Below are positions 7,474-60,930 of a DNA stretch of 64,000 nucleotides, in pieces; position 1 is the first letter of the stretch, and each line of letters begins with the position of its first letter. The stretch is from Eledone cirrhosa (lineage: Eukaryota). A program made the position numbers and the translations under genes. The stretch is taken from the NCBI GenBank assembly GCA_964016885.1, contig OZ024740.1, forward strand, positions 367,970,001-368,034,000, in the 5' to 3' direction. The notes below the pieces were generated by a model, which was not told the origin of the DNA, searched no databases, and saw nothing but the letters and a program-made list of their open reading frames with translations.

Positions 7474-7530
<57 letters not shown>

Positions 7531-7600
7531 AAAAAGGGATGAAATCGAAAATGCAACTGAAGTCTTATTTTTTTTTTAAATATATATATTTATTTGGTTC

Positions 7601-7637
7601 CGTTACCGGTTTCGCAGTTCTTCTGCTTTTCAAAAGG
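7601..7637 (-). ncRNA. Minimal type I hammerhead ribozyme, U3:A8 variant (candidate)
   Basis: Minus strand reads cctt TTGAAAA gcag-aagaa-ctgc GAAA ccgg TA acgg, in the same sense as and downstream of the GIY-YIG ORF. Confidence 0.6.
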
Positions 7638-7948
7638 TGAGTTGAGATGGAGGGTCTGTGGTTTTTCTCACATGAGAAATATATACAAATATACACATAC
7701 ATACATATACACATATAAATATACATACACGCACACATATATATATATACACACACACACATACATACATACACACATCCATACATATATATACACACAC
7801 CCACATACATATATACCCACACGTACATACATCCATACATATCTACACATATATATGTGTGTGTCTCACCGTTCACTCAGATATTCATGTGTACACATAA
7901 GAAGAGGGGGGGGGGTAGTGAAATGGAATTTTACCTTCGAGTGTTAAT

Positions 7949-8356
7949 TCATTGTTTCGTGTTCAGTAGTGGTTCAAATTTTTCAATGAAGAATTCTTTA
8001 TATTTGCGGAAATGTTCGTTTTCCGACCATATCTTGAAGAAAGGGATGATTGTGAATTTTCCCTTCCCGCATGATGTAAAGTGTGCGCTACATGTGATAT
8101 TTCTGACTGTGGGGTCTTTAATTTGTTGTTTATGTACCCGGACTCTATCATGTAGTCCCATTCCGGTTTCCTCAATGTAATACTCTTTACACTGTGGAGA
8201 TGTTGCGCAATATATTAGGTTTTTTGTGTTGCAGTTAATGTTTGCATTGATCTTGAAATTATCATGTTTTTTTAAGGACAACTGTTTGCCCTCTTCGATG
8301 AGTTCACAGGTTCCACATCTAGGGTCCCCGCATTTCGTCAGTTGCATTGATTCCAT
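7949..8356 (-). pseudogene. GIY-YIG endonuclease domain of a Penelope-like element
   Basis: NLIYC..YIEETG (GIY-YIG variant), conserved R..H and a preceding CxxxxCxxC motif. Confidence 0.85.
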
Positions 8357-10172: not shown

Positions 10173-10309
<137 letters not shown>

Positions 10310-10365
10310 TTAGCGTTTTTTTTTTACAAATCGAAAAATAACCGAGGTGTCCTACACGAGTGAAA

Positions 10366-10652
10366 GTATAAAGAAAAAGAGATGAAATCGAAAATGCCAC
10401 TGGAGTCTCATTTAAAAAAAATATATATATATATATTTATTTCGCAGTTCTTCTGCTTTTCAAAAGTAGAGTTGAGATGGAGGGTCTGTGGCTTTTCTCA
10501 CAGATGTGAGAAAAACCACAGACCCTCCATCTCAACTCTACTTTTGAAAAGCAGAAGAACTGCGAAACCGGTAAAGGAACCAAATAAATATACATATTTT
10601 TATTAAAACATAAGACTCCAGTTGCATTTTCGATTTTATCTCTTTTTCTTTA
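10366..10652. repeat. Fold-back (inverted) pair of PLE pLTR ends
   Basis: Arms are reverse complements around ctcacagatgtgag (about 10497-10510). Same family as 7527-7676. (TA)n on both sides. Confidence 0.85.
10541..10576 (+). ncRNA. Minimal type I hammerhead ribozyme, U3:A8 variant (candidate)
   Basis: ctt TTGAAAA gcag-aagaa-ctgc GAAA ccgg TA aag. Confidence 0.65.
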
Positions 10653-11006
10653 TATATATATATATTACAAAAACTGGGGAAGTTTAGATTTTTATTTTAT
10701 ATCAATTTGTTACGTCGGTTTATTTTATATCAATTTGTTACGCGGGTTTATTTTATATCAATTTGCTCACCCATAGGATTTATGGTGATGTTGTCACATC
10801 GTCAGTCTGTATGGCCGATCGATAATGGAGTCGGGTCCATATCTCCTTGGCTGACCTTGAGCCAATTACCTGCGAAACACGCGTAATAGGTCGATAAACA
10901 ATACAAAACGTATACATGTAAACGAAACTCCCTCGTTTTTTCTAATATATACGCCCAGTCTGTGCACAGAGGGCTTCTTTTGGTACTACCACCACTAATC
11001 TCTCCC

Positions 11007-11074: not shown

Positions 11075-12431
11075 AAATTAATATATGATAAACACTTACT
11101 TGTTTTTGTTGTAATTGACAATAAAATAGCTAGATTGAAATATCTTAATTCAAATACATATAGTCTGCCTGTGTCGATCTAAAAAATAATAAATCAATAC
11201 TCACAAACACATATCGGCAAAAGGCCTTGGTACCTAGACACGTTTCAATTTCAAAATACAAACTTTTTCCGCAGATCAGTCCGAACTTCAAAATTAAACA
11301 TGTTTCACAAAGGATGGTATAATTGTGAAATAATTAATCAATTAGTAGTGAGATAATTAATTTTCTGTGTTTATCAATAGGTACCCAGATAAATTAAGTA
11401 ACTTCACCTCAGAAAAATATCTAAGGTCTGGTTAACGTAGCGAAAATACACGAGGTTTTGCACACGAATTATTCCAGTCCTCTAGCCTCCCATACTCATA
11501 GTGCTAGAAATAACAGCCGTTTATATGGGATTACAAATTCAGCTCAACTGAGGGACCAGTAATATAATATAATTGAGAGTTTACACTCAATGGGACTGAT
11601 CTGCGGAAAAAGTTTGTATTTTGAAATTGAAACGTGTCTAGGTACCAAGGCCTTTTGCCGATATGTGTTTGTGAGTATTGATTTATTATTTTTTAGATCG
11701 ACACAGGCAGACTATATGTATTTGAATTAAGATATTTCATTCTAGCTATTTTATTGTCAATTACAACAAAAACACGTAAGTGTTTATCATATATTAATTT
11801 ATACTGCTCAGAAATGATTCTTAGAGCTAAAATAATTGTAAATGACCCCATTGAGTGTAAACTCTAAATCATATTATATTACTGCTCCCTCAGTTGAGCT
11901 GAATTTGTAATCCCATATAAACAGCTGTTATTTCTAGCACTATGAGTATAGGAGGCTAGAGGACTGGAATAATTCGTGTGCAAAACCTCGTGTATTTTCG
12001 CTACGGTAACCAGACCTTAGAAATTTTTCCGAGGTGAAGTTACTTAATTTATCTGGGTACCTATTGATAAACACAGAAAATTAATTATCTCACTACTAAT
12101 TGATTAATTATTTCACAATTATACCATCCTTTGTGAAACATGTTTAATTTTGAAGTTCGGACTGATCTGCGGAAAAAGTTTGTATTTTGAAATTTAAACG
12201 TCTCTAGGTACCAAGGCCTTTTGCCGATATGTGTTTGTGAGTATTGATTTATTATTTTTTAGATCGACACAGGCAGACTATATGTATTTGAATTAAGATA
12301 TTTCATTCTAGCTATTTTATTGTCAATTACAACAAAAACACATAAGTGTTTATCATATATTAATTTATACTGCTCAGAAATGATTCTTAGAGCTAAAATA
12401 ATTGTAAATGACCCCATTGAGTGTAAACTCT

Positions 12432-12440
<9 letters not shown>
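11075..12440. mobile_element. Non-coding PLE-type element: inverted plus partial-tandem pLTR units (about 570 bp)
   Basis: 11075-11593 is the reverse complement of about 11848-12366. 11593-11870 is directly repeated at about 12159-12436. (TA)n at both flanks. Confidence 0.8.
11229..11385 (-). ncRNA. Type I hammerhead ribozyme, U3:A8 variant with long stem-II region (candidate)
   Basis: GGTACCTA TTGATAA [about 125 nt] GAAA cgtg TC TAGGTACC with a perfect 8-bp stem I. The base of stem II is unclear. A plus-strand copy at 12056-12212 has GAAA mutated to TAAA. Confidence 0.55.
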
Positions 12441-12475
<35 letters not shown>

Positions 12476-12476
<1 letters not shown>

Positions 12477-12673
12477 CGAAGAAAGTGTGGTAAGGAACCA
12501 GGTGGACTATCACGCACCAGAGTACTCGATAATTTGGGTAGTAGAGTGGGTAATAGCAAATTAGTCAGGACCCCGACGGCAGAGCTCAAATAGCTTCGAC
12601 GACTATTTCTGGACTCGAAATAGCCGTCGTTACGGCTTGAGCTCTGCCTTCGGGGTCCTGACTCTTTTCCTAT
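12476..12673. repeat. Short fold-back element (ccgacggc/gagctc family)
   Basis: Terminal palindrome gacccCGACGGCAGAGCTCAA..TTGAGCTCTGCCTTCGGGGTC; homologous copies at 30.6, 33.0, 36.7, 36.9 and 41.9 kb; (TA)n flanks. Confidence 0.8.
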
Positions 12674-13379
12674 ATATATATACATATGCATGAAACTCAT
12701 GAGACCCTGTGATTTTGCAATTCTGTGTTTGCCTTGTGTGTCTGTGTTTGTGTATATATACATTTAAAATGTGAAAGAAGGAGGGAAATAAAAGGACAAG
12801 AATGACTGATTGTTACCTTAATAATGCATTGATCTAAATATACCGGCACGAGCTTTTATATATATATGTGCTTACTTATATATTTACAATTCACGATATA
12901 TTTTGTGTTATTATGCTATATTTAGTTTAAAGATGTTTCCACTCTCTGTTTACTCTTGTGATTATATATTATAATATTGCTTCAATCTTGTTAAATTTAT
13001 TTTTTCATGAAGCTCAACACAATAATCGTTTTTGCTGTAATTATGTAGTATTAAACCTATTTATAAGGCAACAAATATTTTCTATTTAGATTTAAATCCT
13101 ATTAGTCGAACCATGATTGTAAATTGTTTTACAAACAAGTTAAAAGTAAATTATTCTCTTGGTGATATTATATCTGTATCCTTAGTTTATATCAAGGGTG
13201 TGCAATATTTATTAAGCACTATTCCAAAGATTCAACACAACGTCTTTCCATAACATGGAACTGGGAAATTATAACACACATATCCCTATTAGTGAAGCCC
13301 TTTAGTATAGGTCAACTAACAGAAAATTGTATTATGTTTAGGAAAAGAATTCTAAATAAGTGTACAAGGTAAAAATTAA

Positions 13380-13437: not shown

Positions 13438-14364
13438 TATATAAATTATTTATTTATTTACGTATTTCTATGTGTGGGGAGTATGAAATCCTAGTGAATA
13501 TGAAGTTTATCTATATGTTTCACTATTTTCTAAATCTTAAATCAATGTATGTTTTGTAGGGTGTTTATGTTTGCTTATGTTTAACAGTAAATTCTGTATA
13601 ATTTATAGATTATTTTGCTTTTATTGGTATCATTGTATTAAGCTTGTTGTGTGGAGATAAGGGAAGATTTATTCAGATTCGGTTAATGGGGAATGTAGAT
13701 AAGTAAAAGCAATGATTATATTTAAAGAATGTTTTTAACATTTTATGTTTGCAATTGAAGATGATCCGGTCGTTCCAGAAGTTTAATAGGCCCGTTCGAG
13801 TTAGGATCTCTAGTACTTCGTGTGAGCAAAGCTCCCATTCATTATCACCGTTTGACCATAAAAATATACAATCAATCTTATCTTCCTTTAATTCCCAGAT
13901 TGTACACATTTCTTTGGAGACGTTTTAGGTACATAATTATACGTAACTGTGTTCAAGTCAATTTCACATAGATATATAATATTCTTTATATAGGTATTAT
14001 CCTATGAAGGGGCATTTATCATGTTTGCTACAGTTGTCATTTTTCCACGTGTGCTTTTCACAATTTCGACCTGTACGAGGATTTGGAGTGGCTGTGGATT
14101 TGGTACTGGGTTGAATGAAATTGTTTCGTTTAATTTTTGAATTTACTGTTTGGATATGTGAGATGTTTTTTTGTTGTTGGGTGCGGCGGGGGGAGGGTAT
14201 GTTGAGTGGATGGTAGCCATATCTTTGTGATATCGATTCATGCGTTGGTGAATTGTTTTTATTATAAGTATAGTCGACAGGTAGTGGATTAGCAATAACC
14301 TTAGAGCCTCGGGAAACATGCTTCCCAGCATAGCGTAACAGTGACTTACGTTTTGAGTTATAGA

Positions 14365-15331: not shown

Positions 15332-15940
15332 CTTATATTTAAGTAACAGCCGTACTAAGAGTGGGAAATGAAATTTCGTTTCATTTTTTCCGTTTAAAGA
15401 TATTATATAAAGTTACAAAGTGAAATTCTTGACTATGATGAGTACATTTGCTTTAAGATATATTTTCAATAAATTCTTCAGAAACCTATGTAACTGATAG
15501 CATTGGCCTTTTGATATCTATAAGGAAATGATTTGAATTCTGATAATGAAATCTTATGAGACAAAAATTCTATATATTGATAAGTGGTAAGTTTAGAGAT
15601 AATAATAATCTTCAACTGAACCAGATCAATAATCATTTGATCCAGAAACATTATATGGAGTAGCGAAACAATTGTAAACGGACATTATTAGTATTATTAT
15701 TATTCTTCTTTACATTCCTTACATTAAACTAAAACTGTTGACAATCTTTTAATAATGTTTTCCTTGTGAAATTTGTGGTCTTATTTTGCTTAACTAATGA
15801 ATGTATATATATATGTGTGTGTGTGTGTGCGTGTGTGTGTGTGTGTAATGAGTTATATGGTTTGTTGATTATGCAACAAAGTTAATTTTACAATAGATTA
15901 GATGCACTCAACGGCTTTATCTGGAGTATCATTAATATCA

Positions 15941-16262
15941 ATAATATTAATAAATGGAAAATATCTTTATGAAATCATATTTAATTTATCGCACGTATTT
16001 CAAGTGTACTAATATTTAAGTACGCTTTCGTCAGATAAAATATAATAATTGGTGTAAAGATAGTGACATATCTTCATGTGAACTTCATGTTAAAAGTTCA
16101 CTGAATTTATAACATGAAGTTCACATGAAGATATGTCACTATCTTTACACCACTTAGTATATTTTATCTGACGAAACCGTACTTAAATATTAGTACACTT
16201 GAAATACGTTTAAATTAAATAAATATGGTTTTATAAAGATATTTTCCATTTATTAATATTAT
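15941..16262. repeat. Fold-back element with a hammerhead motif in each arm
   Basis: Two arms of about 150 bp are reverse complements around 16092-16109. Confidence 0.85.
16162..16219 (+). ncRNA. Minimal type I hammerhead ribozyme (candidate, partly decayed)
   Basis: ttttat CTGACGA aaccgtact..agtacactt GAAA tacgtt TA. Mirror copy on the minus strand at about 15995-16040. Confidence 0.6.
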
Positions 16263-16276
16263 ATTTATATTCATAT

Positions 16277-16647
16277 ATAAATTAATAACAACAATGAAAT
16301 AAAAGCAAAGAACAAGTTCCTTATATTTAAAAAATCATCATTTTACGATCGTTTCTGGGATGTATATGTGTGTTGGTATGTATATCACATAGATTTATGT
16401 AAAAATATTACAAATTATCAGAGGAAATATACATACCTTCACATATACATGCCGTCCTCATTTCTGAGGATGGCATGTATATGTGAAGGTATGTATATTT
16501 CCTCTGATAATTTGTAAGATTTTTACATAAATCTATATGATATACATACCAACACACATATACATCCCAGAAACGATCGTAAAATGATGATTTTTTAAAT
16601 ATAAGAACTTGTGCTTTGTTTTTATTTCATTGTTTTTATTAATTTAT
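16277..16647. repeat. Near-perfect 370-bp palindrome
   Basis: Arms fold at cctca-tttc-tgagg (about 16456-16469). Confidence 0.9.
16459..16586 (+). ncRNA. Type I hammerhead ribozyme with extended stem II
   Basis: cattt CTGAGGA tggcatgtatatgtg..cacatatacatccca GAAA cgatcg TA aaatg: intact core, 5-bp stem I, palindromic stem III. Confidence 0.75.
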
Positions 16648-18396: not shown

Positions 18397-18780
18397 TGAG
18401 TGAGAGAGAGATGATATTAGTAATAAACAGAAGATACAACACTATAACATCATTATTTATTTCATTATATATATTTCAGGGATGCTAAATTATAGCCCTG
18501 CTAGACGTGGGTGTGTCGATCTTACAATTGTAGAGTAAATTACTGGATAGGCATTTCCCGTAATTCGGCTAAATTAGATGCAGTGATGCTATGTACGAAG
18601 TTTGGAGTTGTTGAGTAAGTCATACACATAGGTTTTAGAATAACGCTGTACTCACACAAATATTATTTTGTACTTAGAGGGCCGTACTTCCATATCATTT
18701 CCTATATATATATACATATATACATATATACATATGTAAAATAGGCTACCTTTTTCTCAATTGATATATCCTCGTAAATC

Positions 18781-30155: not shown

Positions 30156-30825
30156 CCCACACACACGCACACACACATATAATTATATATACATATATAT
30201 ATATATATGAGATTAAAAACCTTTTTTGTATTGCAAACCATGTCAATCTTCTTTCCTGATTTATATATATATATATGCATATATTTAAAGGTTAAATAAG
30301 TTTCAATGAATAAATCAAAGAATGAGTTTTACAATAGATTGGAAGCACTCAACCATGGTTTTCCGGAGTTATTAATATTAACACAAAATATTAACAAAAT
30401 AGATATTCTTGTGATCGTTGAAGTTAACTCAGTACCTCTGAAAAATGTATAATAAAATAATACTTGATCACAAGAATATCTATTTTGTTAATATTTTGAA
30501 TTAATATATATATGCATATATATATATATATGTATATATATACATATACATGTGCATGTATGTGTGTGCGTGTGTGTGTATGTATAAATATATATATGCC
30601 GTTGAAACGGCTTGAATTCTGCCGTCGGGGTTAAACTTCCTATTACCCACTCTACTAAGCTAAGTATTGAGTACTCTGGTGGGTAATGGTCCATCTGGTT
30701 CCTTACCACACTTCGTTCCTTATATATATATAGGTAGCGAGTTTGCGTGAATTCTCATGCAGGTTATTCTTGAAATAATAGTCTATGGCTCCGTTAATCT
30801 TTCTTGATATATATATATATATTTA

Positions 30826-31100
30826 TAATATAAGATCAAAAGATGGTTAAAGGAGTTCCATGTATTTTATTATGCGCATTTCAAAAACAAACATCATCAT
30901 GCAATAATATTTGTGTTTTCATCAGATTAAAGATGTTGATTTAAAACTGCACTATCCACAAGTGTTTTTTAGCCTTCATATCATGTTCTCCTGTTTTATC
31001 TGATGAAAACACAAATATTATTGCATGATGATGTTTGTTTTTGAAATGCGCATATTAAAATACATGGAACTCCTTTAACCATCTTTTGATCTTATATTAT
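30826..31100. repeat. Fold-back element with a hammerhead in each arm
   Basis: 30826-30927 is inverted at 30998-31100. Confidence 0.85.
30994..31060 (+). ncRNA. Minimal type I hammerhead ribozyme
   Basis: ttttat CTGATGA aaacacaaatatt..gatgtttgttttt GAAA tgcgca TA ttaaaa. Mirror copy on the minus strand at about 30865-30930. Confidence 0.75.
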
Positions 31101-31266
31101 GCATACTCCAGTCTTCAAACTGTAGAGTGCTTCTTATCCGATATCTGCATTGCTTTATTGTACTACAATAAAACCACCCTCCTACATTATATATATTTAT
31201 ATATACGTTATTCCGGGTTGAATCGGAGGTAACCACAGTAAGTAAGGTACTCAATACATTTCAGAG

Positions 31267-31753
<487 letters not shown>

Positions 31754-32854: not shown

Positions 32855-33219
<365 letters not shown>

Positions 33220-33281
33220 TAGAAAGTGAGGTTTATTTTTAAAAATGAAAAATAACCGAGGTGTCCTACGCGAGTGAAAGT

Positions 33282-36662
<3,381 letters not shown>

Positions 36663-36844
36663 TATATATATATATATTTAAATATATTGGAAAAGAGTAT
36701 AGACCCCGACGGCTGAGCTCCGGTCGTTTCGATAGCTACATCTAGCTATCGAAACCATCTGAGCTTACCCTTCCGCTTTACTAACCTAAGTATCGAGTAC
36801 TCTGTGCGTTATGGTCCACCTGGTTCCTTACCAAACTTCCTTCG

Positions 36845-36886
<42 letters not shown>

Positions 36887-36980
36887 ATATCTATCTATCT
36901 ATCTATCTATATATATATATATTTAGTCCAGAATTAGCCGTCGAAACGGCTTGAGCTCAGCTGTCGGGGTCTTACTGGTT

Positions 36981-37035
<55 letters not shown>

Positions 37036-38681: not shown

Positions 38682-38712
38682 ATAATAATAAATATGAAGA
38701 ATAAAATCCATT

Positions 38713-40264
38713 GTGTTCGTTGCGTACCCTACGAAGTCCGATTTAGGCAGACTTAGTAAAACGATTCTTGATAGAATTATACCTGAAATTAGAAGTTTGG
38801 CCCCTATCGCACTGTCGAACAATTCTTTCGCGGTGATTGATTGGTTCAACGGCATACGTAACAAGGAACATTGCCGTTTTATCCAATTCGACATCAACAA
38901 TTACTACTCCTCCATCACTTTACCACTTCTCCTTAGAGCTATCAATTTCGCTAAAACACTCACAGTGGTTAAGGATTTCGAAGTTGATGTCATCCTTAAT
39001 GCCCGAAAGTCGGTGATTAATTTCGACGACTCTATTTGGATTAAAAAATCCAATAGTACTCCATTCGACGTGAGTATGGGCGCCAGTGACTCTGCGGAGG
39101 TTACTGATCTTATTGGCCTTTCCTTCTTTTCTCTATCAAGGACGAATTCCCCAACGCGGGCGGTGGTTTGTACCGTGACGATGGTCTTTTGACCATGAGT
39201 AAGTGCGGACCTCGTGCTTGCGACAGGTTCAGAAAAGAACTCACAGCCTTCTTTAAAGGCTTCAACCTCTCTATACAGGTTGAGGCCAATCTCTCGGTCG
39301 TTAATTACCTCAACGTTACCCTCAATTTATTGAATGGGTTGTATTACCCGTATAGAAAGCCGAATGATACGCTTAATTACATAAGTAAGCATTCCAACCA
39401 TCCTGCCAGCATAACCAAGAACCTGGTAAGTAACGTTTCGTTGAGGCTTTCCCGTCTTTCCACCAACGAGCGCATTTTCAACGACCATTCCACTTATTAC
39501 AATGAAGCTCTTGCTCGAAGTGGATTTGTCGATAAGGTAGCATATACAGAGTACGAAAATAGACCTAGAAGAAATAGATCCCGTGGCATTTGTTGGTTTA
39601 ACCCACCATATAATATGGAGGTGCCACACCATTAGTTAAGATCTTCCTTTCCCTTATTACGAAGCATTTTCCCCCTACACATAAATATAGTAACATTTTT
39701 AATAGAAATACTATTAAAATTTCTTACTCTACGACTCCTAACCTTGCACATAACATCACAGCTTCAAATTTAGCTAAACTACCTAGCCGTAGGAACACGT
39801 GCAACCCTGTAGTTATTACTAACTGTAATTGTAGGAATCGGGCTGATTGCCCCCTATCCGGGAAATGCCTCTCTAGTAACATTGTCTACAAATGTAAGGT
39901 TGTAACACCCACGTCCCGTAGGGCTTACATAGGGTTAACCGCCAATAGTTTCAAGCAGCGTCTTTACATGCATACCCATTCTTTTCGTTACCCTCTAAGA
40001 AGGAATATGACGTCACTTTCAGCTTATATCTGGAGTCTAAAAGACAACCACACCCAATATAAGTTACACTGGGAGATCCTAGCTAAGGCTAGATCGTATA
40101 ACGGAAATAAAAGACCATGTGACCTCTGCGCCGCTGAGGCCCTGGAAATACTCTACGCCACAGACCACATCTTAAACAAAAAATCTGAGGCAATTTCGGC
40201 TTGTAAACATAAATTGCACAAAACTTTCCTGCATTACAGCCCAACGTTATACCGTAACGGATAG
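38713..40264 (+). pseudogene. Penelope-like element pol (RT + GIY-YIG), 5'-truncated and frameshifted
   Basis: FIQFDINNYYSSI, FDVSMGA.DSAEV.DLIG, YRDDGL, YRKPND..YI..SNHP, WFNPPY, CNCR..CPL.GKC..NIVY..YIG, C.LC..E, spread across several frames. Confidence 0.95.
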
Positions 40265-41371: not shown

Positions 41372-41837
41372 CGTTAAACACTCACAACCGTCCCTTATGA
41401 TTAAAATAGCTTAAGGAAAAAAATTTTCCGAGGTTTATAATAGTCAGGAGAGACGAACACATATATATAACTATGTGTTCAAATCACAAAGGATTGAAAC
41501 CGCTAAGGTGCAGAAAATACATAACCATGTGTTCTCGCTCTCTTAACACATGTGTGTTATTTAGTCTCCTGTTAATCATTGTAGTGATGTGAATATTGCT
41601 GTGGATACCCGTTGAACGGCTCTTCTGCAATAATTCTCTTCACTGAATTTTGCGAAATAGATCTACCCATAAACTGTCCGGTGCTAGCTATCATGGTATG
41701 TTTGTATATCTCAATTTATCCTTTTCAATGGTTGAATATTTCAGTCAGCATTTTCTTCACCATGGTGGCGGTTTCTGTTCCTTGGGATTTGAACATATAT
41801 AATTATATATTTGTGTTCGCCTCTCCTTACAATATAT

Positions 41838-42039
41838 GTAGGAAAATGTTTGACCCCGACGGCAGAGCTCAAGCCGTTTCGACGGCTATTTCTGGACTAA
41901 TTTAGTCCAGAAATAGCCGCGAAACGGCTTGACTTCTGCCGTCGGGGTCAAACATTTTCCTATTACCCACTCTACTACGCTAAGTATTGAGTACTCTGGT
42001 GCGTTATAGTCCATCTGGTTTCTTACCACACCTCCTTCG

Positions 42040-42043
<4 letters not shown>
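41838..42043. repeat. Short fold-back element (ccgacggc/gagctc family)
   Basis: Palindrome 41839-41962 centred on ctggactaatttagtccag. Confidence 0.85.
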
Positions 42044-42101
<58 letters not shown>

Positions 42102-45524: not shown

Positions 45525-45934
45525 GGTGTTGGATGCTTAAAGCGACCGTATGCGGTAGGCCTTATGAGCACTCGATGCTCTCATAGAGCGAAGTATGATA
45601 TCACAGAAAAAAAGAGAATCAGTGTTGCCAAGAATGGAATTTAGTGGACATATTACAATCGTTTCCCTGGCGACCAGCCCGAGGCACGATCGATGTGACG
45701 ATCGAACCTGACTCTGAAAATCGCAATTATTGTAATTCTATGAGTGCTCAAGAATTGAACACGTCATCGGTATTTCTAGTCACTCATGGTTGTCCACTAT
45801 TTGGTTCTTTTCATTCTCCATATGCCAATAAAATGTGTTTCTTACGTCGGAATTACTACTGTAGTAGGTAAGGGGTTGTATGCTTGAACTGCTGGCGGCA
45901 CTTCGACGTCTTCACTGTCTTCATTATTGATGCA

Positions 45935-46372
45935 CGGACCTGCCGTGTTGGAGAGGAGTGCCCTCTACAGGGAATGTGCCTCATTAAGGGCGTTGTCTAC
46001 AGAGGTGTGGTTACTACGCACAACGATAGGCACACATACATCGGAGCTACATCCACGACTTTTAAATCGAGGATGTACAACCACAAAAACTCGTTCAAGG
46101 ACAAGAACAAGAGACACTCTACCAGACTGGTGGACTTGGTATGGGGACTCAAAGATAGTGGAATAAAGTTTCACCTCAGCTGGAGTATTGTACAGCCAGC
46201 GAATGCGTACTCGGCCGGGAAGAGGAAGTACAAGTTATGCCTGTCCGAGGCTATGGACATAGTAACACTTAAGGGACACGCAGTCAACCTCAAATCTGAA
46301 ATCATCATGGCCTGCAGACACCGACGTAAATGCACGCTCTCCGCTTTAGTGATACCGGATGCGTCTACCTAA
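45935..46372 (+). pseudogene. GIY-YIG endonuclease domain of a Penelope-like element
   Basis: CR..CPLQGMCLIKGVVY..TYIGAT..FKSR..NH..SF..LCLSE..N.KSE...CRH; homologous to 39820-40264. Confidence 0.9.
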
Positions 46373-49602: not shown

Positions 49603-51680
49603 TCGGAGAGTTAAAGATGTGTGTATCTGTATCTGAAGGTCTACTTGCATGTATAGTCTTGATCGTTATCGGATCGATATGTAGAACGGAAAAGCTTGTG
49701 ACATGTGCATTAATTTCTGGTTATAACCCTTAACGCTCAGATTGGACTTGAAATACTCCTTAATAGATCCTTAATTCATGTTCTGTTCTGTTCTGATGAT
49801 GATCATTATAATTCTTCTATTATGTACATCATGTATTGTTTCGTGAAGCATTCATAAATCTATTACCACACAATAACAATACTTGTCAAAATTGGCTGAA
49901 GGTGCATTAATATATTAGTTTTTTCCGGATAGAATCTGTTTCTCGATTTACAGGTAGAATTTCTTCATCGCATATATATATATTCGGCAAGTTCCATCAG
50001 TTAAGGAAACATGACCGATATGCGAAACATCAAGAGAATCAATATTAGGTTCCTTAATTATAGCTCCTTCATATCACCTCGTGCGGTCCTCATTATCAAT
50101 TGTGAGCTGACTAAAATTATTTCAGAACGAATAAAATTGCAAGTCAATATGACGGAAGTAGCATTATTCTGTACAATAATAATATATATTATAATGGGAA
50201 ATTATAATATATCAAAACCTAGAAGAGATGGTAACAGTTCTTCCTTAATTCAATGAATCTAAATATAATTAAATGAAATGTTTAACGTATATCTCTGGAT
50301 AAACCCCCTATCTTCGATCAGATAGATATAGGAACAGGTGTATCGATCTTTGGCTAAATTTAATAATTTTCAAATATTATTGTTATATTTTTTTATGGGA
50401 ATAACGAAAGAAAAAGATAAAGGTGTGTACAATACCATCAATATGAAACAGGTGTCTTAACAATTTCCTATTTTATATAACGATGAGACAATATATAAAA
50501 TCTACAACGAGTAAGACATTAGGCTACCTTTGTCTAACAACAGCTTATTTTTCAGTAAAATGCATCTGATAACTGAATGCGTGATAGAATTGATTATAAC
50601 TGGCAGGTCTCTGCAAAAGTTTTTTTTCCAAAATGTAGCACTGCGGTCCATAAATATTACAATAGTGTAGTTCTTGGATGTCAGAGGTCAAAATCAACGG
50701 TAGAGGCAACACATGTTCGACAAAAAAAAAAATTACAATATAGAATTAACTTTTTATCGAGAGTAATTGAAGCAAATCAACGAATCCGTTTTATCCGTTT
50801 TAGATGATAGCAACTAAAATATGAAACACACATCCTTCTGTTATGCTGTTATTAAAATGTGTGTGAATACATTACAGGGCTTCCTATTCTCCATGAAGAA
50901 CACATTATATAGAGTTTATGACAACTGTAAATTAAATGTAAACTGCAACCATGAATATATCTAGATATAAGGAAATACATGAATATCCGTTTTGAAGGGT
51001 TTAAATTGTTATTAATATGAATTTCAAAAAGAGAAATATGGAACAAATGCAAGCAATTTCTGAAGATGTGGTTAACTTGAAATTGAATGGTATTCCTCCA
51101 ACTTTCAAGAAGTAGACAAATACTATATCAATGAAATTTATGTAATAAACCATACATGTTGCATCTCCTTTCGATTATTGATGAAAATCCTTCCTTTAAA
51201 AGAAATTATTGTATTGATTCACAAATATTGTGAATGTACGTAAAATATAAAATAGCAGGATGTGAAACTGTCAAATATCTGAATAGCAGGTAATTTACAA
51301 AACCTATGAGGCTGAAACACAACATCTCCTATGATGTAAATTTACTGATGCAAGAGTTTACATTTGGAAGATTCTGTGGAAACAACAATGATTTGAAGAA
51401 CATTACAAACTTGATGTAAATGAATGTTTGATTAATGTATCTCTATATATACACAAATGATGTTTTTAAACACACACAGACCCACACTGAGACACATACA
51501 CACACAAACATATAAACACATATGTGTAGTTGGTAGCCATAACATGCAGACTGTAAATACCATGTGTCAGACTCGATCGTCACTTGTCATAACTTGAAGT
51601 GTTCAATTGCGTAAAATAATTATGCGACATTAAAATATTGATAATTTGTTAACGTTCGCTTATATATGTATGTATGTATG

Positions 51681-53073
51681 TTCTTCTGGTTTTATAATTT
51701 CACAAAGTTTTACGAATAGAGAGAGAGTTAGTTTCTAACATAGACACAAGACTCTCTCATTGGAATTTACACAACATCAACTAGGTAGATATATATGTAT
51801 GCATGCATGTGTAGATATGGATGTTATTGTATGTGTGGATGTGTATGTTTTGAGTTGTATGTGTGCATGTGTATATGCTTTGTATTTGTACATGTGTATA
51901 TGCAGTTATTAGATACAACATTTCTGGAATGTTTTACATATTTTACTGTTCCAAGAATGGATTGTACTTGTAATTTCCTAACTAGTTGTGTTCTTTCTGT
52001 TCCTGTGAAGCCTAGCTTCTCAAGATTTGTATTGAGGCAGTTACTAACATATCCCAGTGCCCCAATAATCACAGGCATAAATCTGAAGGTGTAATCAGGG
52101 TCGAATATCTGCAGATTTCTCATCAGTTCTGCATAAATATTCTCCTTTTCACTAATCTTTGATATTATATTGGCATCTGCTGGGCAGCTAATTTCCACTA
52201 CTGCGCATGTTTTCTTCTCCCTGTCCCATATCATAATATCTGGTCTGTTATGCCTGCATTTTATTGGGGTTTTTACTGGAACATTCCACCAGTACTCTTT
52301 CATATTATGTACATGGATGTCTTCCATGTTGCTGTAGCTTTTAATGTGTTTATTGTCGATGCTATCTTTTTTACGAACTTCATTGTACAGTGCTTTGGCC
52401 ACTACATCATGCATCATAGGTAGATAGTACCGCGATGACATATTTGGACAGTTGCTGATGAGATGGGTGATATCCCCGATGTTAGTTCTGCAGAGTCTGC
52501 ACTTGTTATCACATCTAGGTGTTTTGCCTGCATCCCTATCTCTTTTTTGAATCAGGTATTTCGTGTTAATCTCCTGTTCTTGGATTGCAAAAGCGTATCC
52601 TTCAAAATGGGAGCCAATATAGCGGTTGTTGGTCCAAGATAGATTACTTTGCTTATCTATATTACTCTCACTCTGGAGCTTCCTGGCAACATATCTATGC
52701 ATCACTTTTTGCTGATAGGCATGCAGTTTTTCATCCATGGCTTCACTGCGATATTTGCTGAGCGACCTCCTTGGGTATAAGTTTTTGATTATCACACAGG
52801 GAATATCTCTCGAGGAGTTCCTTCCCAACTCTCATGATCTTATCTGTTTCATGCAGATAGACTTGCTCGAGAAACGGGCTCCTACGCTTCAAGGTTCGTA
52901 GATGTTGCCGGAGAGATATGCGACATTTAAATGTTGTCTGGACTGATGTTAGGCCCCTCTGCCTCCCTGCTTACGTTTCAAGTAAAGGCGGTCTATGTCA
53001 CTGTTGATGTGAAAGTTTCCGGTATTGTTTAGTATTTTTCGAGTTCCAACACCAACTGCTCGGATTTCGTCTA
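51681..53073 (-). mobile_element. 5'-truncated RLE non-LTR retrotransposon (R4/Dong-like), copy 1
   Basis: ORF 51824-52828 has a CRLC..H...C zinc knuckle, RYY..HD and HNRPDI..VEISCP endonuclease. TATG repeats at both ends. Confidence 0.9.
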
Positions 53074-54192
53074 TGTATGTATGTATTTTTTGTGTATGTC
53101 TGTATGCGTGTATGTATGTATGAACGTGTTTCTGTGTGTTTATGTATGTATATGTTTATGTATGTTCTTCTGGTTTTATTTCTTCACAATTTCTTTCCAC
53201 TAGACAGAGAGTTGCTTTCTAACATAGATACAATACTCTCTTATTGGAATTTATACAACATCAACTAGGTAGATATGTCTGCATGTCTGCATGTATGCAT
53301 GTGTGTTCAGGTATGGATGTTATTGCATGTGTTGATGTGTATGTTTTGAGTTGTATGTGTGCATATACATATGCTTTCTATCTGTACAAAAGTGTATATG
53401 CAGTTGTTAGATGCAGAATGTTTGGAATAATTTACATATTTTTACTGTTCCATTAATGGATTATTATACTCGTAATTTACTAACCAATCGTGTTCTTTCT
53501 GTTTTTGTGAAGCTCAGCTTCTCAAGAGTTGTATTGAGGCAGTTACTAACATATCCTAGTGCCCCAATAATCACAGGCATAAATCTGAAGGTCATTAGTT
53601 CTGCATAGGTATTCTCCTTTTCACTAATCTTTAATATGGTATTGCCTTCTGATGAGCAGCTTACTTCCACTTCCTTTTCCCATATCATTATATCTGACCT
53701 GCATATTATTGGGGTTTTACTGGAACATTCCACCAGTACTCTTTCATATTATGAATATGTATGTCTTCCACATTGCTGTAGCTTCTACTGTGTTTATTAT
53801 CGGGGGCTATATTTTATATAGATTGCATTGTACAGTGCGTTGGCCACTACATCATGCCTCATAGGTAGCTAGTACTGAGATAACATCTTTGGACAGCTGC
53901 TTAAGATATGGTTGACATCTCCGATGTTAATTCTGCAGAATCTGCACTTGTTGTCATATCTAAGTGTTTTGCCTGCATGCCTATATCTTTTGTGAATCAG
54001 GCATTTTGTATTGATTCCCTGTTCTTGGATTACAAAAGCGTATCCTTCAAAATGGGATCCAATATAGTGGTTGTTGGTCCAAGATAGACTACTTTACTTA
54101 TCTATATTACTCTCAATCTCGTCGTAAATACTCAACCCCTATTTCGTCAGTAGCCCGTAAGATTTCATTATTTGGTTTTATTTTATTTAGTA

Positions 54193-55143
54193 CTAGCAGT
54201 AAAGCCCGGCGTTGCTCGGGGTCGCTCAGTAGCTGTGTTAAAGTTACAATGTTAAGTTTCTTTCTTGGCTTAAAAACTGTAGTGTCTACTGTGCAGACTT
54301 GCATGTGGTGCTTTTGATTAATATTCCCTCAACCAACAATATGCCTTATGAAGTTAAGAAACATAACGATAACCCGAATGTTATAACAAAAGAGGATGCT
54401 GGGGATAGAAACTGCACTGGTTATTTATTAACAAAGATCGAAAATGTAAACACTGCAACGCAGAGAAAAACATTAGCGTAACCAAATTATCAGTTATGTC
54501 TGTCTGCACGCCGATATCACCTCTCTGCACGACTATCTGTCTGCACGCCTATATCACCTCTCTGCACGACTGTCTGTCTGCACGCCTATATCACCTCTCT
54601 GCACGACTATCTGTCTGCACGCGTATATCACCTCTCTACACGACTATCTGTCTGCACGCGTATATCACCTCTCTGCACGACTGTCTGTCTGCACGACTGT
54701 CTGTCTGCACGCCTAACGACGAAATATTTGCTTGTTTTACGTAGTCTTTAAATAGACTTGTTTTCAAGTAAAAATATTGTTTTAAAATGCTTTTAAATGG
54801 AAATGAAGCAAAACGGAAGCTTAGTGTTCGAACTGATGAATTTTGCAGGTCAATTTTTTGCTGGCTCGACAACTGTTAAAGCCAGCGTAATTTTTTACGT
54901 AAGACGCTCAATGTAAACAGAACAAAGGGAAATAACTGATCACTTACGCTCAAAAATCGATACATTATATTCGATTTCGTCACATAGGGTGGGTCAATTT
55001 GAAATTTTTTTTTTTCCGATGTCTTCGCTAGGGCTCACTGTACAAGTATAGCAATTTCGGTGCAATTCCGTGAGAGATTCTAAGAGGAGATGTGTGCCAA
55101 AAATCGATAGACAGACAGACAACCACAGTTTTATATATATAGA
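54193..55143 (-). mobile_element. Non-autonomous Helitron
   Basis: Minus strand reads A|TCTATATATATAAAAC ... hairpin cccgagcaacgccggg .. CTAG|T, with no target-site duplication. Confidence 0.85.
54497..54713. repeat. Minisatellite of about 37 bp inside the Helitron
   Basis: About 5-6 copies of tgtctgtctgcacgcctatatcacctctctgcacgac. Confidence 0.9.
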
Positions 55144-56028
55144 TTGTTGTTTTATTAGAGTTCAGCAAGAGAAATGTTCATAGATGAATTAATTTCTCTC
55201 TGGAAGATTTAGTTGACAACAACTTTCAATTGTTTATACATTTGATTATTTTTATTGATAGTGTTTACGACAACAGTCGTGGCAGACTCAGTTGCTACAC
55301 GTTGTCTCAAATTTCTTACTGACAGAGTTGTTTCAAGGCAATGTTCGGCCTGACTGTTAGGAAGTCTAGTAGCATGGCGACATGTAGAACGTGTTGTTGA
55401 TTCCATGTTTGTTATGGTGAACTTACAATTTAAGATATTTATCTTATTTTTACGTTCAACACACGTCGCTTGTTGGCGTAATTGTTTGGCTGTTAAAGTG
55501 ATTTATCTATGGATGTATTTTGTCCCAGTGTAGCTTCATTCTGTTCATATAGCCAACGAATGGATTTTGCCAATTTATAACACTTAAATAAATCATCATT
55601 AATTTCGCCGATCCGAGAGGAATACGATTTGTAGTTTCAGTTTCTTCTGTAGCTACAAAAGAATAAATTTTGTTTAAGTTTCTCTTTGATTTTCTCACTG
55701 GTGTTCTTTGGTAAATTGTTTTCTTTCCTAGTGTTCAGTAAATTGTTGATGTTGTGTTCACCCATGCTGGTTGTAGTATATCCTTGTCAAATGAATTATA
55801 TAGTTATTTGGATAGCTCTACGAATTCGAATAAGGGGTTTCTTCAGTGGATATAGTTAGAAAAATATCAAATTATTCAATACGACTGGTAGTTGTTGCAT
55901 TACTGTTGGAGATAGTATTCATCTGAAATTTAATAAATAGTTTCCCACGCCAAAATATGCGACTGATCGCGTTGACTGACTGTCTATGTATGTATGTATG
56001 TATATATGTGTGTGTGTATGTATGTATG

Positions 56029-59000
56029 TTCTGGTTTTATAATTTCACAAAGCTTTACCAATAGAGAGAGAGTCGGTTTCTAACATAGACACAAGACTCT
56101 CACGTTGGAATTTACACAACATCAACTAGGTAGATATGTATGTATGCATGCATGTGTAGATATGGATGTTATTGTATGTGTGGATGTGTATGTTTTAAGT
56201 TGTATGTGTGCATGTGTATATGCTTTTTTATCTGTACATATGTATATTCAGTTATTAGATCCAAAATGTTTGGAATGTTTTACATATTTTTACTGTTCTA
56301 TTAATGGATTGTACTTGTACTTTCCTAACTAGTTGTGTTCTTTCTGTTCCTGTGAAGCCTAGCTTCTCAAGATTTGTATTGAGACAGTTACTAACATATC
56401 CGAGTGCCCCAATAATCACAGGCATAAATCTGAAGGTGTAATCAGGGTCGAGTATCTGCAGATTTCTCATCAGTTCTGCATAAATATTCTCCTTTTCACT
56501 AATCTTTGATATTATATTGGCATCTGCTGGGCAGCTAATTTCCACTACTGTGCATGTTTTCTTCTCCCTGTCCCATATCATAATATTCGGTCTGTTATGC
56601 CTGCATTTTTGGGGGGCTTTTATTGGAACATTCCACCAGTACTCTTTCATATTATGTACGTGGATGTCTTCCACATTGTTGTAGCTCTTAATGTGTTTAT
56701 ATCGGGGCTATCTTTTTTACGAACTGCATTGTACAGTGTTTTGGCCACTACATCATGCCTCATAGGTAGATAGTACCGCGATGACATCTTTGGACAGCTG
56801 CTGATGACTTGGGTGATATCCTCGATCTTAGTTCTGCAGAGTCTGAACTTGTTATCACTTCTAGGCGTTTTGCCTGCATCCCTATCTCTTTTTTGAATCA
56901 GGTATTTCGAGTTAATCTCCTGTTCGTGGATTGCAAAAGCGTATCCTTCAAAGTGGGAGCCAACATAACGGTTTTGGTCCCAGATAGACTACTTTCCTTA
57001 TCTATATTACTCTCACTCTGGAGCTTCCTGGCAACATATCCATGCATCATTTTTTGCTGATAAGCGTGCAGTTTTTCATCCATGGCTTCACTGCGATACT
57101 GATGAGCGACCTCCTTGGGTATAAGTTTTTGATTATCACACAGGGAATATCTCTCGAGGAGTTCCTTCCCAACTCTCATGATCTTATTTGTTTCATGCAG
57201 ATAGACTTGCTCGAGAAACAGGCTCCTACGCTTCGAGGTTCGTAGATGTTGTCGGAGAGATATGCGACATTTAAATGTTGTCTGGACTGATGTTAGGCTC
57301 CTCTGCCTCCCTGCTTACGTTTCAAGTAAAGGCGGTCTATGTTGATGTTGAAGTTTCCGGTGTTGTTCTGTATTTTTCGAGTTCCAACATCAACTGCTCG
57401 GATTTCGTCTATCGTCCAATTGAGTATTCCAAACGTTGGTGTTAGGAAAGGCACAGCAAACATATTGTGAGCCACTGTTTTGTTTTGCGCAGAGAGTTCC
57501 GATGACCAGATCTTTCTTAATCGGGTGTATTATTCCCTGGTTACGCGTTCTTTATTACAGATACCATTATAGGATATGTTCTCATCTATCCCCAGGTATC
57601 TGTAGCAGTCCTCATCAGATATCGATGAAACAGTTAGACCATTGATGACAATGTTGCTAGATTGGGTTGTTGTTTTTCCCCGCTTTACAGTCATGTATGA
57701 GCATTTATCTTGGCCAAACTCCATTCCTATATCCTTTGAGAACGTTGTAACCAGGTCAAGATTTTTCTTCATCCCATCCATGTTCTTGGCATAGTTTCAG
57801 ATCGTTCACAAAGAAGTTATGTGTTAGGTTCGTATTTCCGTCCTTCTGTGAGCTAATGATGTATCTCTCACATTTCTTGAGCAGAAAGGAGAAGGGGTTT
57901 AATGACAAGATGAACAATATCACAGACAGACTGTCTCCCTGAAATATACCCCTGCAATATTTTATTTTACCAGTGAAAATAGAGTCCTCCCTCTCTGTCC
58001 TTAACCTTAGGATAGTAGCCCAAGAAGAAGACAGCCTATCTATGGCTCTGACAATAATGTCTGGGACTTTACTATGTCGGAGGGCCTATATCATCCAAGA
58101 GTGGGGAACATAATCGAAAGCTTTCACGTAGTCCAGCCAGACTGTAATCATATTCCTCCTAAGTTGTCGCACCTCCGAAATCGCAGTTTTGTTGATTAGG
58201 AGTTGTTCAGCACATCCCCAAACCCCTTTCTTTCCAGCTGCTTGTTCATCTGTGATGATGTAATTATTTTCACAGTGATCTTGGAGGAATAGGTTCAGGC
58301 AGGCTGTATACATCTTATACATCAGGTTCTGGCATACAATGGGTCGGTAGTTTTTTTGCCAAGTGGGTGTCTTTGTTCTTGGGGACCAGTAACGTTTGTG
58401 CTAATGTCAATCATTCTGGTATAAGTGTATCTCCCTTAAGAATTTGTTGGTAGAGGTCAGTAAGATACCTCCGATAGAATATTAGTTTTTGTGTACCAGT
58501 AGCCGACAATCATGTCTATTCCTGGTGTTTTCTTATCTTGGAATTTTCCTATTACAGTCTCAAGGGTACCCTCACTTATTTCGTATGTTTTGTTGTAGTG
58601 TAGGAGCAATAGTTCTTTCGGATTTCTCTAGCCACACTGCATCTTGGTTGAAATTCTTCTTTTCACCCCATATTTTAATCCAAAAGGAATCTATGTCTTT
58701 CTTGGATGGGGCCTCAGTGACAATTATTATTTTGCCCTTCATATCTCTATAGACTGATGTTTGGTTTCGTCTGAATCTTTTATTAAGCATTTTTCTCTCA
58801 TCTACCTTCTTCAGGTATCGGCGTTTTTCGCTAACAGCTCTCAATTCTTGCTTGAGGGTGATCAGCTTATATTGGAGAGTTCTGGTTCTACTGTTACTAA
58901 ACATTGTCTCTATTTTATTTTACACTCTTTGTTGGTGAGGAGTGAAGTTTTTTTGTGTTTGTTTGCATGTAAGGAGCATTGTCACATGTCCTATGTTTTT

Positions 59001-59994
59001 CGTAGGTCAGCACTCTTTTTTTCTATTTTAGTTATATATGATGGTTTTTTTGGTGGTGCTTTGTTCTTGTTAATATCTCTGCTATCACCAATATAATGCT
59101 TCACTGTCATTGCTAAGGCATATAAACAGGCGTTGATTTTCCAAAATGTTGGGTTTTTTATCCGTCGTAAATAAACATCCCCTATTTCGTCAATAACTCG
59201 TAGCATTTCATTATTTGGTTTTTTGTTCAACATTGTCGTTTTAACACGTTCAGCAAGAGAGATATTTATACATGAGTTAATTTCTCTCTGGAAGATTTCG
59301 TTGAGGGAAATTTTCAATTGTTTATACTTTCGATTATCATTATCGATAGTATTTTCCACAACAGTCGAGGTGGACTCGGATGGTATACGTGGTGTCACAT
59401 TTCTTCGATTATTATTATTATTTCTTCGATTATTATTATTATCGATAGTGTTTTCCCCACCATTCGAGGTAGACCTAGATGGTACAGGTGGTGTTAAGTT
59501 TCTTACAGGCATAGTTGTTTCAAGGTGATGTTCGATCTGGCTGCTAGGAAGTCTAGTAGCATGGCGATCTGTAGCACGTGTTGTTGATTCCATGTTTGTT
59601 GTGGGGGACTTACAATTATGAATATTTATCTTATTTTTACGTTCAACAAACGTCGCTTGTTGGCGTAATTGTTTCGCTGTGAAATAATTTAACTCTGGCT
59701 GTATTTCGTCCCAGTGTAGCTCCATTTTATTCATATAGCCAATGGAGGGATTTTTTTTTGTCATTTTATAACAATTAAATAAATCATTATTAAGTTCGCA
59801 ACTCCAAGAGAAATGCGATTTATAATTTCGGTTTCTTCTGTAGCTACAACTGAATAAGGTTTGATTACCTTCTTTGTTATTTGTCTTCGATACTTCCTTA
59901 ATTTTTTTGTTGATGTTTTGTTCAGCCATGCTGTTTGCTGCAAATCCTTGTAAAATGAATGATGTATTTAGTCGGATATTTCTACGAATTCGAA
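56029..59994 (-). mobile_element. Near full-length RLE non-LTR retrotransposon (R4/Dong-like), copy 3, frameshifted
   Basis: Single ORF from ATG 59929 to stop 56255, broken into pieces: WLDYVKAFDYVPHSW, GIFQGDSLS, THNFFVNDLKL, YRYLGI, R..GGRG, HNRPNI..VEISCP. Confidence 0.92.
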
Positions 59995-60012
59995 TGTATG
60001 TATGTATGTATG

Positions 60013-60856
60013 GTTTCTCTTTCTCTTAATTTTGAGTATATTTTTTTGACCGGCCACCTTCCTGGTGGCAAGGTTGTAAAAGAAAAGAAATTGTCATCCC
60101 TTGAATCGCAAGAATGTTTTGCAAATTTTGAAGGTGCCAGCCATCGCAGCCATTTGTAGACTATGAATTAGGGAGCTGCGCTTTTTGTCCGCAAATCCAA
60201 GTTCAGTCATACTTTGGTCCAAGCGGGTTGGTATATAACCCGTAGCACCAATAATGATGGGTATGAAGCTAAAGGTGTATCTTGGATACTGGATTTGTAA
60301 ACTCCTCATCAATGGTCCGTAGATGTCCTCCTTCTCCTGTATTTTTCTGACAACGTTTACATCAAGTGGGCAGCTGATCTCCACAACAGAACACGTTTTC
60401 AATGTGTGGTCCCAAACTACAATATCAGGCCGGTTGTGCTTTAATCTGGTGGCAGTTTTTATTTTCAGGTTCCACCAGTATTCCTTAGTGCCATCTGTCT
60501 CAATATATTCTTCCTCGTTTGTTGTTAATTTTGTTTTCCGAAGTGCGTTCCAGATGGTTCTAGCTATCCCATCGTGTCTCATGGGGAGGTAGTAGCGAGA
60601 TGACATTCTTTCGCAGCCGGCAACAATGTGGCTTACATCCTCGATCTTTGTTTTACATAGCCTACATTTATTGTCAGCTGCTGGCCCTCCTCTTTTGTGC
60701 AGCAGATATTTGGTAGGGAGTTCTTGTTCCTGTATTGCATAGAGATATCCCTCAAGGTGTGATGTCATAAACTTGTCGGAAATCCATGCCAGGCTTTTTG
60801 AGTGGTTTACCCCCTCTATGGTCTGTGTTTTACGCCTCAAGTATCCATGCACAACT
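60013..60856 (-). mobile_element. 5'-truncated RLE retrotransposon of a second, related family (copy 4)
   Basis: ORF 60094-60852 has CRLC..H...C, RHD and HNRPDIVVWD..VEISCP; different 3' UTR; (TATG)n on both sides. Confidence 0.9.
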
Positions 60857-60930
60857 ATGTATGTATGTATGTATGTATGTATGTATGTATGTATGTATGT
60901 ATGTATGTATGTATGTATGTATGTATGTAT
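60857..60930. repeat. (TATG)n microsatellite
   Basis: About 18 perfect units; another run lies at 61368-61423. Confidence 0.97.

What the first reader, a model, noticed from the sequence alone, without database searches (positions are those of the whole stretch)
10541..10576. Non-canonical UUGAAAA hammerhead core (U3:A8) fixed in a PLE family
Seen: ctt-TTGAAAA-gcag/ctgc-GAAA-ccgg-TA-aag, with TTGAAAA retained in all five copies (7627-7633 minus, about 10457 minus, 10544, about 33381 minus, 36556). One copy lies downstream of a GIY-YIG ORF in the same sense. Established: C3 and G8 form a tertiary Watson-Crick pair in the hammerhead core, and U3:A8 is the compensatory swap. Inference: a functional variant of only about 36 nt that CUGANGA-based searches would miss, probably acting as a dimer through the CCGG palindrome.
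Basis: partly seen in the sequence, partly recalled or inferred. Interest (0 to 1): 0.75.

Follow-up and report, generated by a model that had tools for sequence, protein, structure and literature searches.

The report
Swapped-core hammerhead in Penelope retrotransposon
This is a real hammerhead-type RNA motif, predicted to cut itself, at the end of a young jumping-gene family with about 11,000 copies in this genome; its U-A core swap is already in print, and a small excess of copies that begin exactly at the predicted cut site suggests it likely cuts now and then in the host.

Summary
The motif is real: a minimal type I hammerhead with U3:A8, a palindromic helix III and a GUA site at 10541-10576. 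It lies in the pLTR of a young Neptune/Nematis-type Penelope-like element. About 10,950 of 11,008 genomic matches carry U3:A8 and none C3:G8, so these are not decayed outliers. The variant is not new: U3-A8 was reported in natural hammerheads (2011) and in PLE hammerheads (2014), and this scan has noted it on other DNA of this genome. Corrections: only 1 of the 5 window copies is intact, and it is buried in a 61-bp hairpin with its inverted partner. Fixation reflects recent amplification, so within-family covariation says nothing. Folding supports a dimer through ACCGGU, with a weak stem I. Extra: among 22 sampled junction sites, 7 are clean 5' ends exactly at the predicted cut and none lie 3-10 nt upstream (2-9 times control rates), a modest hint of cleavage in vivo. 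Cleavage is untested.

The parts
10541..10576 (+). Intact minimal type I hammerhead motif, U3:A8 core, stem I 3 bp, stem II 4 bp, palindromic helix III
10544..10550 (+). Core box U3-U4-G5-A6-A7-A8-A9 (U3 = 10544, A8 = 10549)
   Evidence: family state
10567..10572 (+). ACCGGT palindrome, predicted intermolecular helix III of the dimer
   Evidence: cofold P = 0.86-1.00
10573..10574 (+). Predicted cleavage site, after A17 of GUA
   Evidence: hammerhead numbering (PMC4209133, PMC3088659); junction excess
10501..10652 (+). 5'-truncated pLTR copy that holds the motif; starts near -73 and ends at +78 from the cut site, followed by (TA)n
10305..10503 (-). Inverted partner arm with the longer 3' end (tail); its hammerhead (TTGAAAA 10457-10463) lacks helix III and the cut site; pairs with the plus arm as a 61-bp hairpin (10440-10567)
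7501..7673 (-). Solo truncated pLTR copy (TTGAAAA 7627-7633, stem I broken), inserted in the microsatellite-like 3' region of another PLE family
33281..34892 (-). Left arm of a large inverted insertion of the family's 3' region; hammerhead at 33381-33387 with damaged stem II
35387..36675 (+). Right arm of that insertion; hammerhead at 36556 with broken palindrome
7961..8233 (-). Broken GIY-YIG frame of a different PLE family (bystander, not the motif's own ORF)

Best explanation
The motif is the U3:A8 minimal hammerhead in the terminal repeat (pLTR) of a young Penelope-like retrotransposon family, and it likely cuts its RNA after GUA only rarely, as a predicted dimer joined through the ACCGGU palindrome. 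Shown: the anatomy, the family-wide U3:A8 state, one motif on each side of an intact RT plus GIY-YIG element 4.7 kb apart, and PLE-type insertion ends in (TA)n. From established knowledge: positions 3 and 8 form a Watson-Crick pair and the U-A swap is tolerated. Inferred: two motifs of one tandem transcript (or two RNAs) pair through helix III, each core cutting the partner's site, perhaps helped by the element's protein; most RNA is copied uncut, which is why most genomic copies keep the whole motif, while 1-2% start at the cut. A U3-A17 pair that extends stem I would damp activity, like the known C3-G17 trap. The copy at 10541 is a truncated passenger and is probably silent, because its inverted partner would sequester it.
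For: U3:A8 in about 10,952 of 11,008 matches, reversed-pattern control 0. Motif within 1.5 kb downstream of the family endonuclease in 26 of 30 loci. L192 holds motif - ORF1 (409 codons) - ORF2 (775 aa; RVT_1 E 1.3e-6, GIY-YIG E 2.1e-6) - motif, all in one sense; 2 of 5 long loci fetched have this tandem form. 3' ends at +78 (49 of 143) and +147 (70 of 143) from the cut site, also seen as loose ends into (TA)n in public contigs. Monomer hammerhead fold +2.4 kcal/mol against MFE -6.6; the dimer MFE holds both stems II and the 6-bp intermolecular helix. Other minimal hammerhead families in the genome use C3:G8 or U3:A8 as matched pairs: 83 C:G, 11 U:A, 4 U:G, 2 C:A among the first 100 of 18,599 matches (counted by hand). 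Junctions: of 22 sites, 7 clean 5' ends exactly at N1.1, 5 sites (4 events) compatible, 2 duplication junctions there, none at -3 to -10; 5.4 times the AT-microhomology control class (p 1.4e-4) and 3.1 times the busiest control class (p 0.004). Papers: PMC4209133 (parts 1-2 of 4 read), PMC3088659, PMC3884650, PMC11167929 (passages).
Against: No cleavage assay. Stem I is only 3 bp (74 of 144 motif hits in held loci) or 4 bp (63 of 144; loci overlap), and the full dimer hammerhead fold has probability 2e-7 to 4e-5 in the secondary-structure ensemble. In the 4-bp subfamily U3 pairs with A17 at P 0.59. Counting only clean N1.1 junctions, the excess over the busiest control class is 2.0-fold and not significant (p 0.098), and 5 of the 22 sites lie 1-2 or more nt downstream, so the area may be a general template-switch hot spot. 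Close neighbours are mostly inverted (23 of 26 pairs within 6 kb among 100 listed), which cannot dimerise in cis. Published PLE minimal hammerheads cut poorly even as dimers (PMC4209133), and for an Anolis PLE no reads ended at the site and cleavage was not needed for insertion in vitro (PMC11167929).
Confidence: 0.68

Rival explanations
1. The motif is a catalytically dead or nearly dead relic carried along by a recent burst; U3:A8 looks fixed only because one master element was copied.
For: Changes at positions 3 and 8 are scattered singletons of every base type (C 34, G 14, A 12 at position 3; G 22, C 14, T 9 at position 8), as neutral decay gives. Stem I is marginal and U3-A17 competes. 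Naiad PLEs spread without a canonical hammerhead (PMC8557442, passages).
Against: All 13 core positions, stem II and the palindrome fit the hammerhead model in the master, with the 3:8 change compensated; a second, unrelated family does the same. 5' junctions are enriched at the exact cut site.
Confidence: 0.2
2. The fold matters as a structure (protein binding, promoter or splice context), and the junction excess comes from reverse transcriptase stalling at helix III or from microhomology with the TA target and the inverted arm, not from cleavage.
For: Sequence just downstream of the site is AT-rich and partly self-complementary; 5 of 22 sites are at +1/+2 or beyond and 5 are ambiguous through TA overlap. 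Catalytic mutants did not reduce insertion in vitro for an Anolis PLE (PMC11167929, passages).
Against: A stall at the 3' edge of helix III would leave A17 on the copy, but 7 junctions lack it and begin exactly at N1.1; the AT-microhomology control class is 5.4 times rarer.
Confidence: 0.12

Closest known systems
U3-A8 minimal hammerheads of Cercyon PLEs in Schistosoma mansoni (Cervera and De la Pena 2014, PMC4209133; parts 1-2 of 4 read, figures and supplements not seen)
   Same: Type I minimal hammerhead in the pLTR of a PLE, same core swap, missed by a C3-G8 descriptor, palindromic 15.2-16.2 region, G10.1-C11.1 pair, predicted dimer, mostly dispersed single truncated copies.
   Different: Here stem II is 4 bp with no extra base after A9 (there 7-8 bp with an unpaired base), stem I is 3-4 bp, helix III carries a CCGG insert, the copy number is about 11,000 against about 1,300, and the host element has a CX4CxxC linker and an upstream ORF1.
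Natural U3-A8 core variants (Perreault et al. 2011, PMC3088659; passages)
   Same: C3-G8 covaries to U3-A8 in several natural hammerheads; the paper cites earlier in vitro proof of activity of such swaps (Przybilski and Hammann 2007, not held, not read).
   Different: That paper ascribes tolerance of core variants to tertiary contacts; none is apparent here, and activity of this motif is untested.
Neptune/Nematis-type EN+ Penelope-like elements (Craig et al. 2021, PMC8557442; passages)
   Same: [quoted passage not shown]
   Different: Tail is 69 nt here against 30-40 bp described; clade not fixed by a tree; two overlapping ORFs.
Poseidon PLE hammerhead of Anolis (PMC11167929; passages)
   Same: pLTR hammerhead whose 3:8 pair was shown to matter; two RT start sites give the tail, as the two 3' ends here suggest.
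   Different: Canonical C3:G8; no RNA ends found at its cut site, whereas here a small class of genomic copies starts at the site.

Membership tests
Type I minimal hammerhead (PLE type) | Core U4 G5 A6 N7 / A9 / G12 A13 A14 / A15.1-U16.1 / H17 | tested here: met
   Read directly at 10544-10573
Type I minimal hammerhead (PLE type) | Watson-Crick pair between positions 3 and 8 | tested here: met
   U3:A8 in about 10,952 of 11,008; matched C:G or U:A across families, 94 of 100. The tertiary pair itself is not observable here
Type I minimal hammerhead (PLE type) | Stem II with G10.1-C11.1 | tested here: met
   4 bp, P 0.62-0.94 in cofold
Type I minimal hammerhead (PLE type) | Stem I closing the open end | tested here: inconclusive
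   3 bp (P 0.06) in this copy, 4 bp (P 0.78) in the other subfamily
Type I minimal hammerhead (PLE type) | Palindromic helix III allowing a dimer | tested here: met
   ACCGGU, intermolecular P 0.86-1.00
Type I minimal hammerhead (PLE type) | Self-cleavage after H17 | not testable with these tools
   Only an indirect junction excess
Rfam hammerhead families | Match to a curated covariance model | tested here: not met
   0 of 6 hits at E<=10 on 10505-10660 is a hammerhead family; none among the 150 of 237 rows shown for the window
EN+ Penelope-like element | RT followed by C-terminal GIY-YIG | tested here: met
   L192 ORF2: RVT_1 28.7 bits (just under the 29.6 cut-off), GIY-YIG 28.4 bits (above 22.6)
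EN+ Penelope-like element | pLTRs with hammerhead, tandem or inverted, and a tail on one end | tested here: met
   Same-sense motif upstream in 6 of 30, inverted in 8 of 30; tandem in L192, L193; two 3' ends
Neptune/Nematis clades | CX2-5CxxC linker and CCHH in the endonuclease | tested here: met
   Seen in the ORF2 translation; definition from PMC8557442 passages
Neptune/Nematis clades | Placement in an RT phylogeny | not tested
   No reference RTs held; no tree built

The most novel reading that the evidence does not exclude
A 36-nt U3:A8 hammerhead with only a 3-4 bp stem I cuts PLE RNA in the living germ line, and the genome records it: about 120-180 copies start exactly at the cut. The U3-A17 pair acts as a built-in brake that keeps most RNA uncut for copying. 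This would be indirect in vivo evidence for PLE hammerhead activity, which the papers read here describe as lacking or unclear.
Probability: 0.35. Interest if true: 0.55.

Novelty: new member of a known kind. Interest (0 to 1): 0.3.

Why it matters
The core swap itself is known, so the finding as written mainly matters for annotation: about 11,000 copies that Rfam and CUGANGA patterns miss. The more useful part is that the family is young, has intact tandem members, and leaves countable 5' junctions. If the excess at the cut site holds genome-wide, it gives a DNA-only readout of whether PLE hammerheads cut in vivo, which PMC4209133 and PMC8557442 leave open and PMC11167929 could not see in RNA data.

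Tried and rejected
Within-family covariation at 3:8: no C3:G8 copy found, but only 0.07 is expected by chance, so the test cannot show selection. A canonical-core sister family with a CCGG-type helix III: 19 matches against 151 for the reversed control, rejected. The window's GIY-YIG frames as parent: 8233-7961 rejected; 38698-40264 and 45872-46372 lie downstream of all copies and have no tblastn match to the family endonuclease. Stability of the monomer as evidence: z -0.44 and -1.09, nothing. RNA evidence: no RNA holder listed; contigs of four runs of unknown kind gave no GT-AG joint and skipped the motif region as a repeat, so a possible pLTR intron and RNA ends remain open. Relatives in metagenome contigs: 122 pattern hits, none confirmed. 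Not held and not read: Lunse et al. on PLE hammerhead dimers, and Przybilski and Hammann 2007; both are known here only through PMC6765202 and PMC3088659 passages and may hold further U3-A8 data. Supplements of PMC4209133 were not opened and may list more U3-A8 motifs. Searches for a prior report of genomic 5' ends at PLE hammerhead sites (listings only beyond the papers named) showed none, which is a thin check.

Full report
Observation. The motif is at the stated place and reads as a type I hammerhead: stem I CTT/AAG, core TTGAAAA, stem II GCAG/CTGC with a 5-nt loop, GAAA, the palindrome ACCGGT and a GUA site with the predicted cut between 10573 and 10574. The core 12-mer occurs 5 times in the window against 0.29 expected. 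Only the 10544 copy is whole. The 10463 copy has lost helix III and the cut site, 36556 has a broken palindrome, 7633 a broken stem I, 33387 a damaged stem II. Four of the five are arms of two inverted insertions. A read-through transcript of the 10541 locus is predicted to fold into a 61-bp hairpin (-113.8 kcal/mol) that buries the core up to A15.1, so this copy is probably silent.

Family state. A pattern free at positions 3, 7 and 8 matches 11,008 places in the 3.0-Gb genome, with 0 for the reversed control; the 100 listed all have U3 and A8. Non-A bases at position 8 occur 45 times (G 22, C 14, T 9), always with U3. Non-U bases at position 3 occur 60 times (C 34, G 14, A 12), always with A8. 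So about 10,952 of 11,008 are U3:A8 and none C3:G8. But only 0.07 doubles are expected and the singles look like neutral decay, so fixation shows a recent burst from a U3:A8 master, not selection on copies. A looser search for a canonical-core sister with this kind of helix III gave 19 matches against 151 in the control.

Across families. Minimal hammerheads ending in CGAAACGTH number 18,599 against 693 in the control. Among the first 100, counted by hand, 83 are C3:G8, 11 U3:A8, 4 U3:G8 and 2 C3:A8. The association is strong but the rows come from a few families, so the p-value overstates it. Ten of the 11 U3:A8 rows belong to a second family; 6 of the 10 loci fetched for it have, upstream in the same sense, an endonuclease like the window's 39614-40264 frame. 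The swap is therefore used by at least two unrelated PLE families here.

Host element. Following the upstream sequence led to a GIY-YIG frame about 1 kb before the motif. L192 is an intact member: motif, ORF1 of 409 codons, ORF2 of 775 aa with RT and GIY-YIG matches, and a second motif 4.7 kb after the first. ORF2 has a CX4CxxC linker and CCHH residues, the marks of Neptune/Nematis-type elements in PMC8557442 (passages); no tree was built. Copies end at +78 or +147 from the cut site (49 and 70 of 143, a biased sample) and many short ones start at -73 to -69 (22 of 143). Public contigs show the same ends running into (TA)n. Of 26 neighbour pairs within 6 kb among 100 listed matches, 23 are divergent inverted pairs. 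All this is the usual PLE insertion pattern.

Mechanism. As a monomer the hammerhead fold is unfavourable (+2.4 against -6.6 kcal/mol). As a dimer the best fold holds the 6-bp ACCGGU helix and both stems II, with helix III at P 0.86-1.00. Stem I is the weak point: 3 bp in this copy, 4 bp in the other main subfamily. In the latter U3 pairs with A17 at P 0.59. By analogy with the C3-G17 trap proposed for minimal hammerheads (PMC3884650, passages), this would damp cleavage; that step is my inference. These are secondary-structure models and ignore tertiary contacts and proteins. The Anolis PLE hammerhead cut only in the presence of the element's protein (PMC11167929, passages).

A footprint of cleavage. 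If RNA is sometimes cut before copying, some insertions should start at N1.1. A pattern for the 3' part preceded by AT-only sequence listed 22 distinct sites in the first 178.9 Mb of the largest contig, all of which I fetched. Seven are clean 5' ends exactly at N1.1. Five sites (4 events) fit it but are ambiguous through TA or A overlap. Two are duplication junctions at N1.1, five lie at +1/+2 or a little beyond, and three are not 5' ends. None lies at -3 to -10. The same design 40 nt upstream listed 60 distinct sites in about 1,062 Mb over 13 positions, classed by hand and not fetched. The cut-site class is 5.4 times the AT-microhomology control class (p 1.4e-4) and 3.1 times the busiest class (p 0.004). 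With clean junctions only the ratios are 3.5 (p 0.013) and 2.0 (p 0.098), and 9 against the mean position. Scaled up, about 120-180 copies, or 1-2%, start at the site. The sample is small and the area may favour template switches, so this is a hint.

Comparison with print. PMC3088659 (passages) reports U3-A8 covariation in several natural hammerheads and cites in vitro activity. PMC4209133 (parts 1-2 of 4) reports U3-A8 in Schistosoma Cercyon PLEs, says it escaped the standard descriptor, found about 1,300 hits, and describes small palindromic helices III and low dimer activity. PMC6765202 (passages) restates the dimer model. This scan has also noted U3-A8 cores on other DNA of this genome.

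Verdict. Real and correctly read, host now identified, known kind. New here are this family, its size, the predicted U3-A17 brake and the modest junction excess. Interest 0.30. The boldest reading (in vivo cleavage recorded in the genome) has probability 0.35 and would merit 0.55.

Noticed in passing
L192:880-4316 (G000:C2:151609000 onward); heptamer at L192:2013-2019: The host element has two ORFs: ORF1 (ATG at 880, stop at 2080) overlaps the RT-endonuclease frame (from 1992) in the -1 frame, with T TTT TTA in the ORF1 frame inside the overlap, kept in 29 of 30 copies. Candidate -1 ribosomal frameshift; the downstream fold is unremarkable (z 0.49 and -0.54). The scan noted this layout before (e1-9572857, e1-10353765), and the Fig. 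1 legend of PMC8557442 says ORF1 can be separated by a frameshift.
   Followed up: partly
L178:291-453; window 10506-10652: Possible intron across the pLTR: GT donors just after the common 5' start and at the GUA site itself, and a pyrimidine tract ending in AG in the tail. No RNA data to test it.
   Followed up: partly
L178:290-292; window about 10501: Many short copies share a 5' start about 70 nt before the cut site. This may be the pLTR transcription start, with cDNAs running off the RNA end.
   Followed up: partly
L182-L191: Second U3:A8 hammerhead family, also with A17, linked to an endonuclease like window 39614-40264.
   Followed up: partly
   Followed up: no
window 38698-40264 (+), 45872-46372 (+), 18488-18623 (-), 13703-13924 (-): Frameshifted RT plus GIY-YIG PLE of another type and fragments of relatives.
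   Followed up: no
window 12436-12687, 30598-30732, 32902-33202, 36700-37029, 41832-42073: Short, strongly palindromic repeat family inserted at (TA)n, giving spurious miRNA-like Rfam hits. Earlier notes describe rearranged hammerheads in such repeats of this genome; not tested on these copies.
   Followed up: no
window 51661-60936 (minus): Several related copies of a non-LTR retrotransposon 3' end (zf-RVT match at 60097-60936).
   Followed up: no
window 10853-10890: Isolated hammerhead-like 3' half (CTGCGAAA followed by an ACGCGT palindrome and TA) without a clear 5' core.
   Followed up: no
window 11075-12446, 15931-16647, 30825-31641: Further long inverted or palindromic repeats with a PLE-like arrangement.
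   Followed up: no
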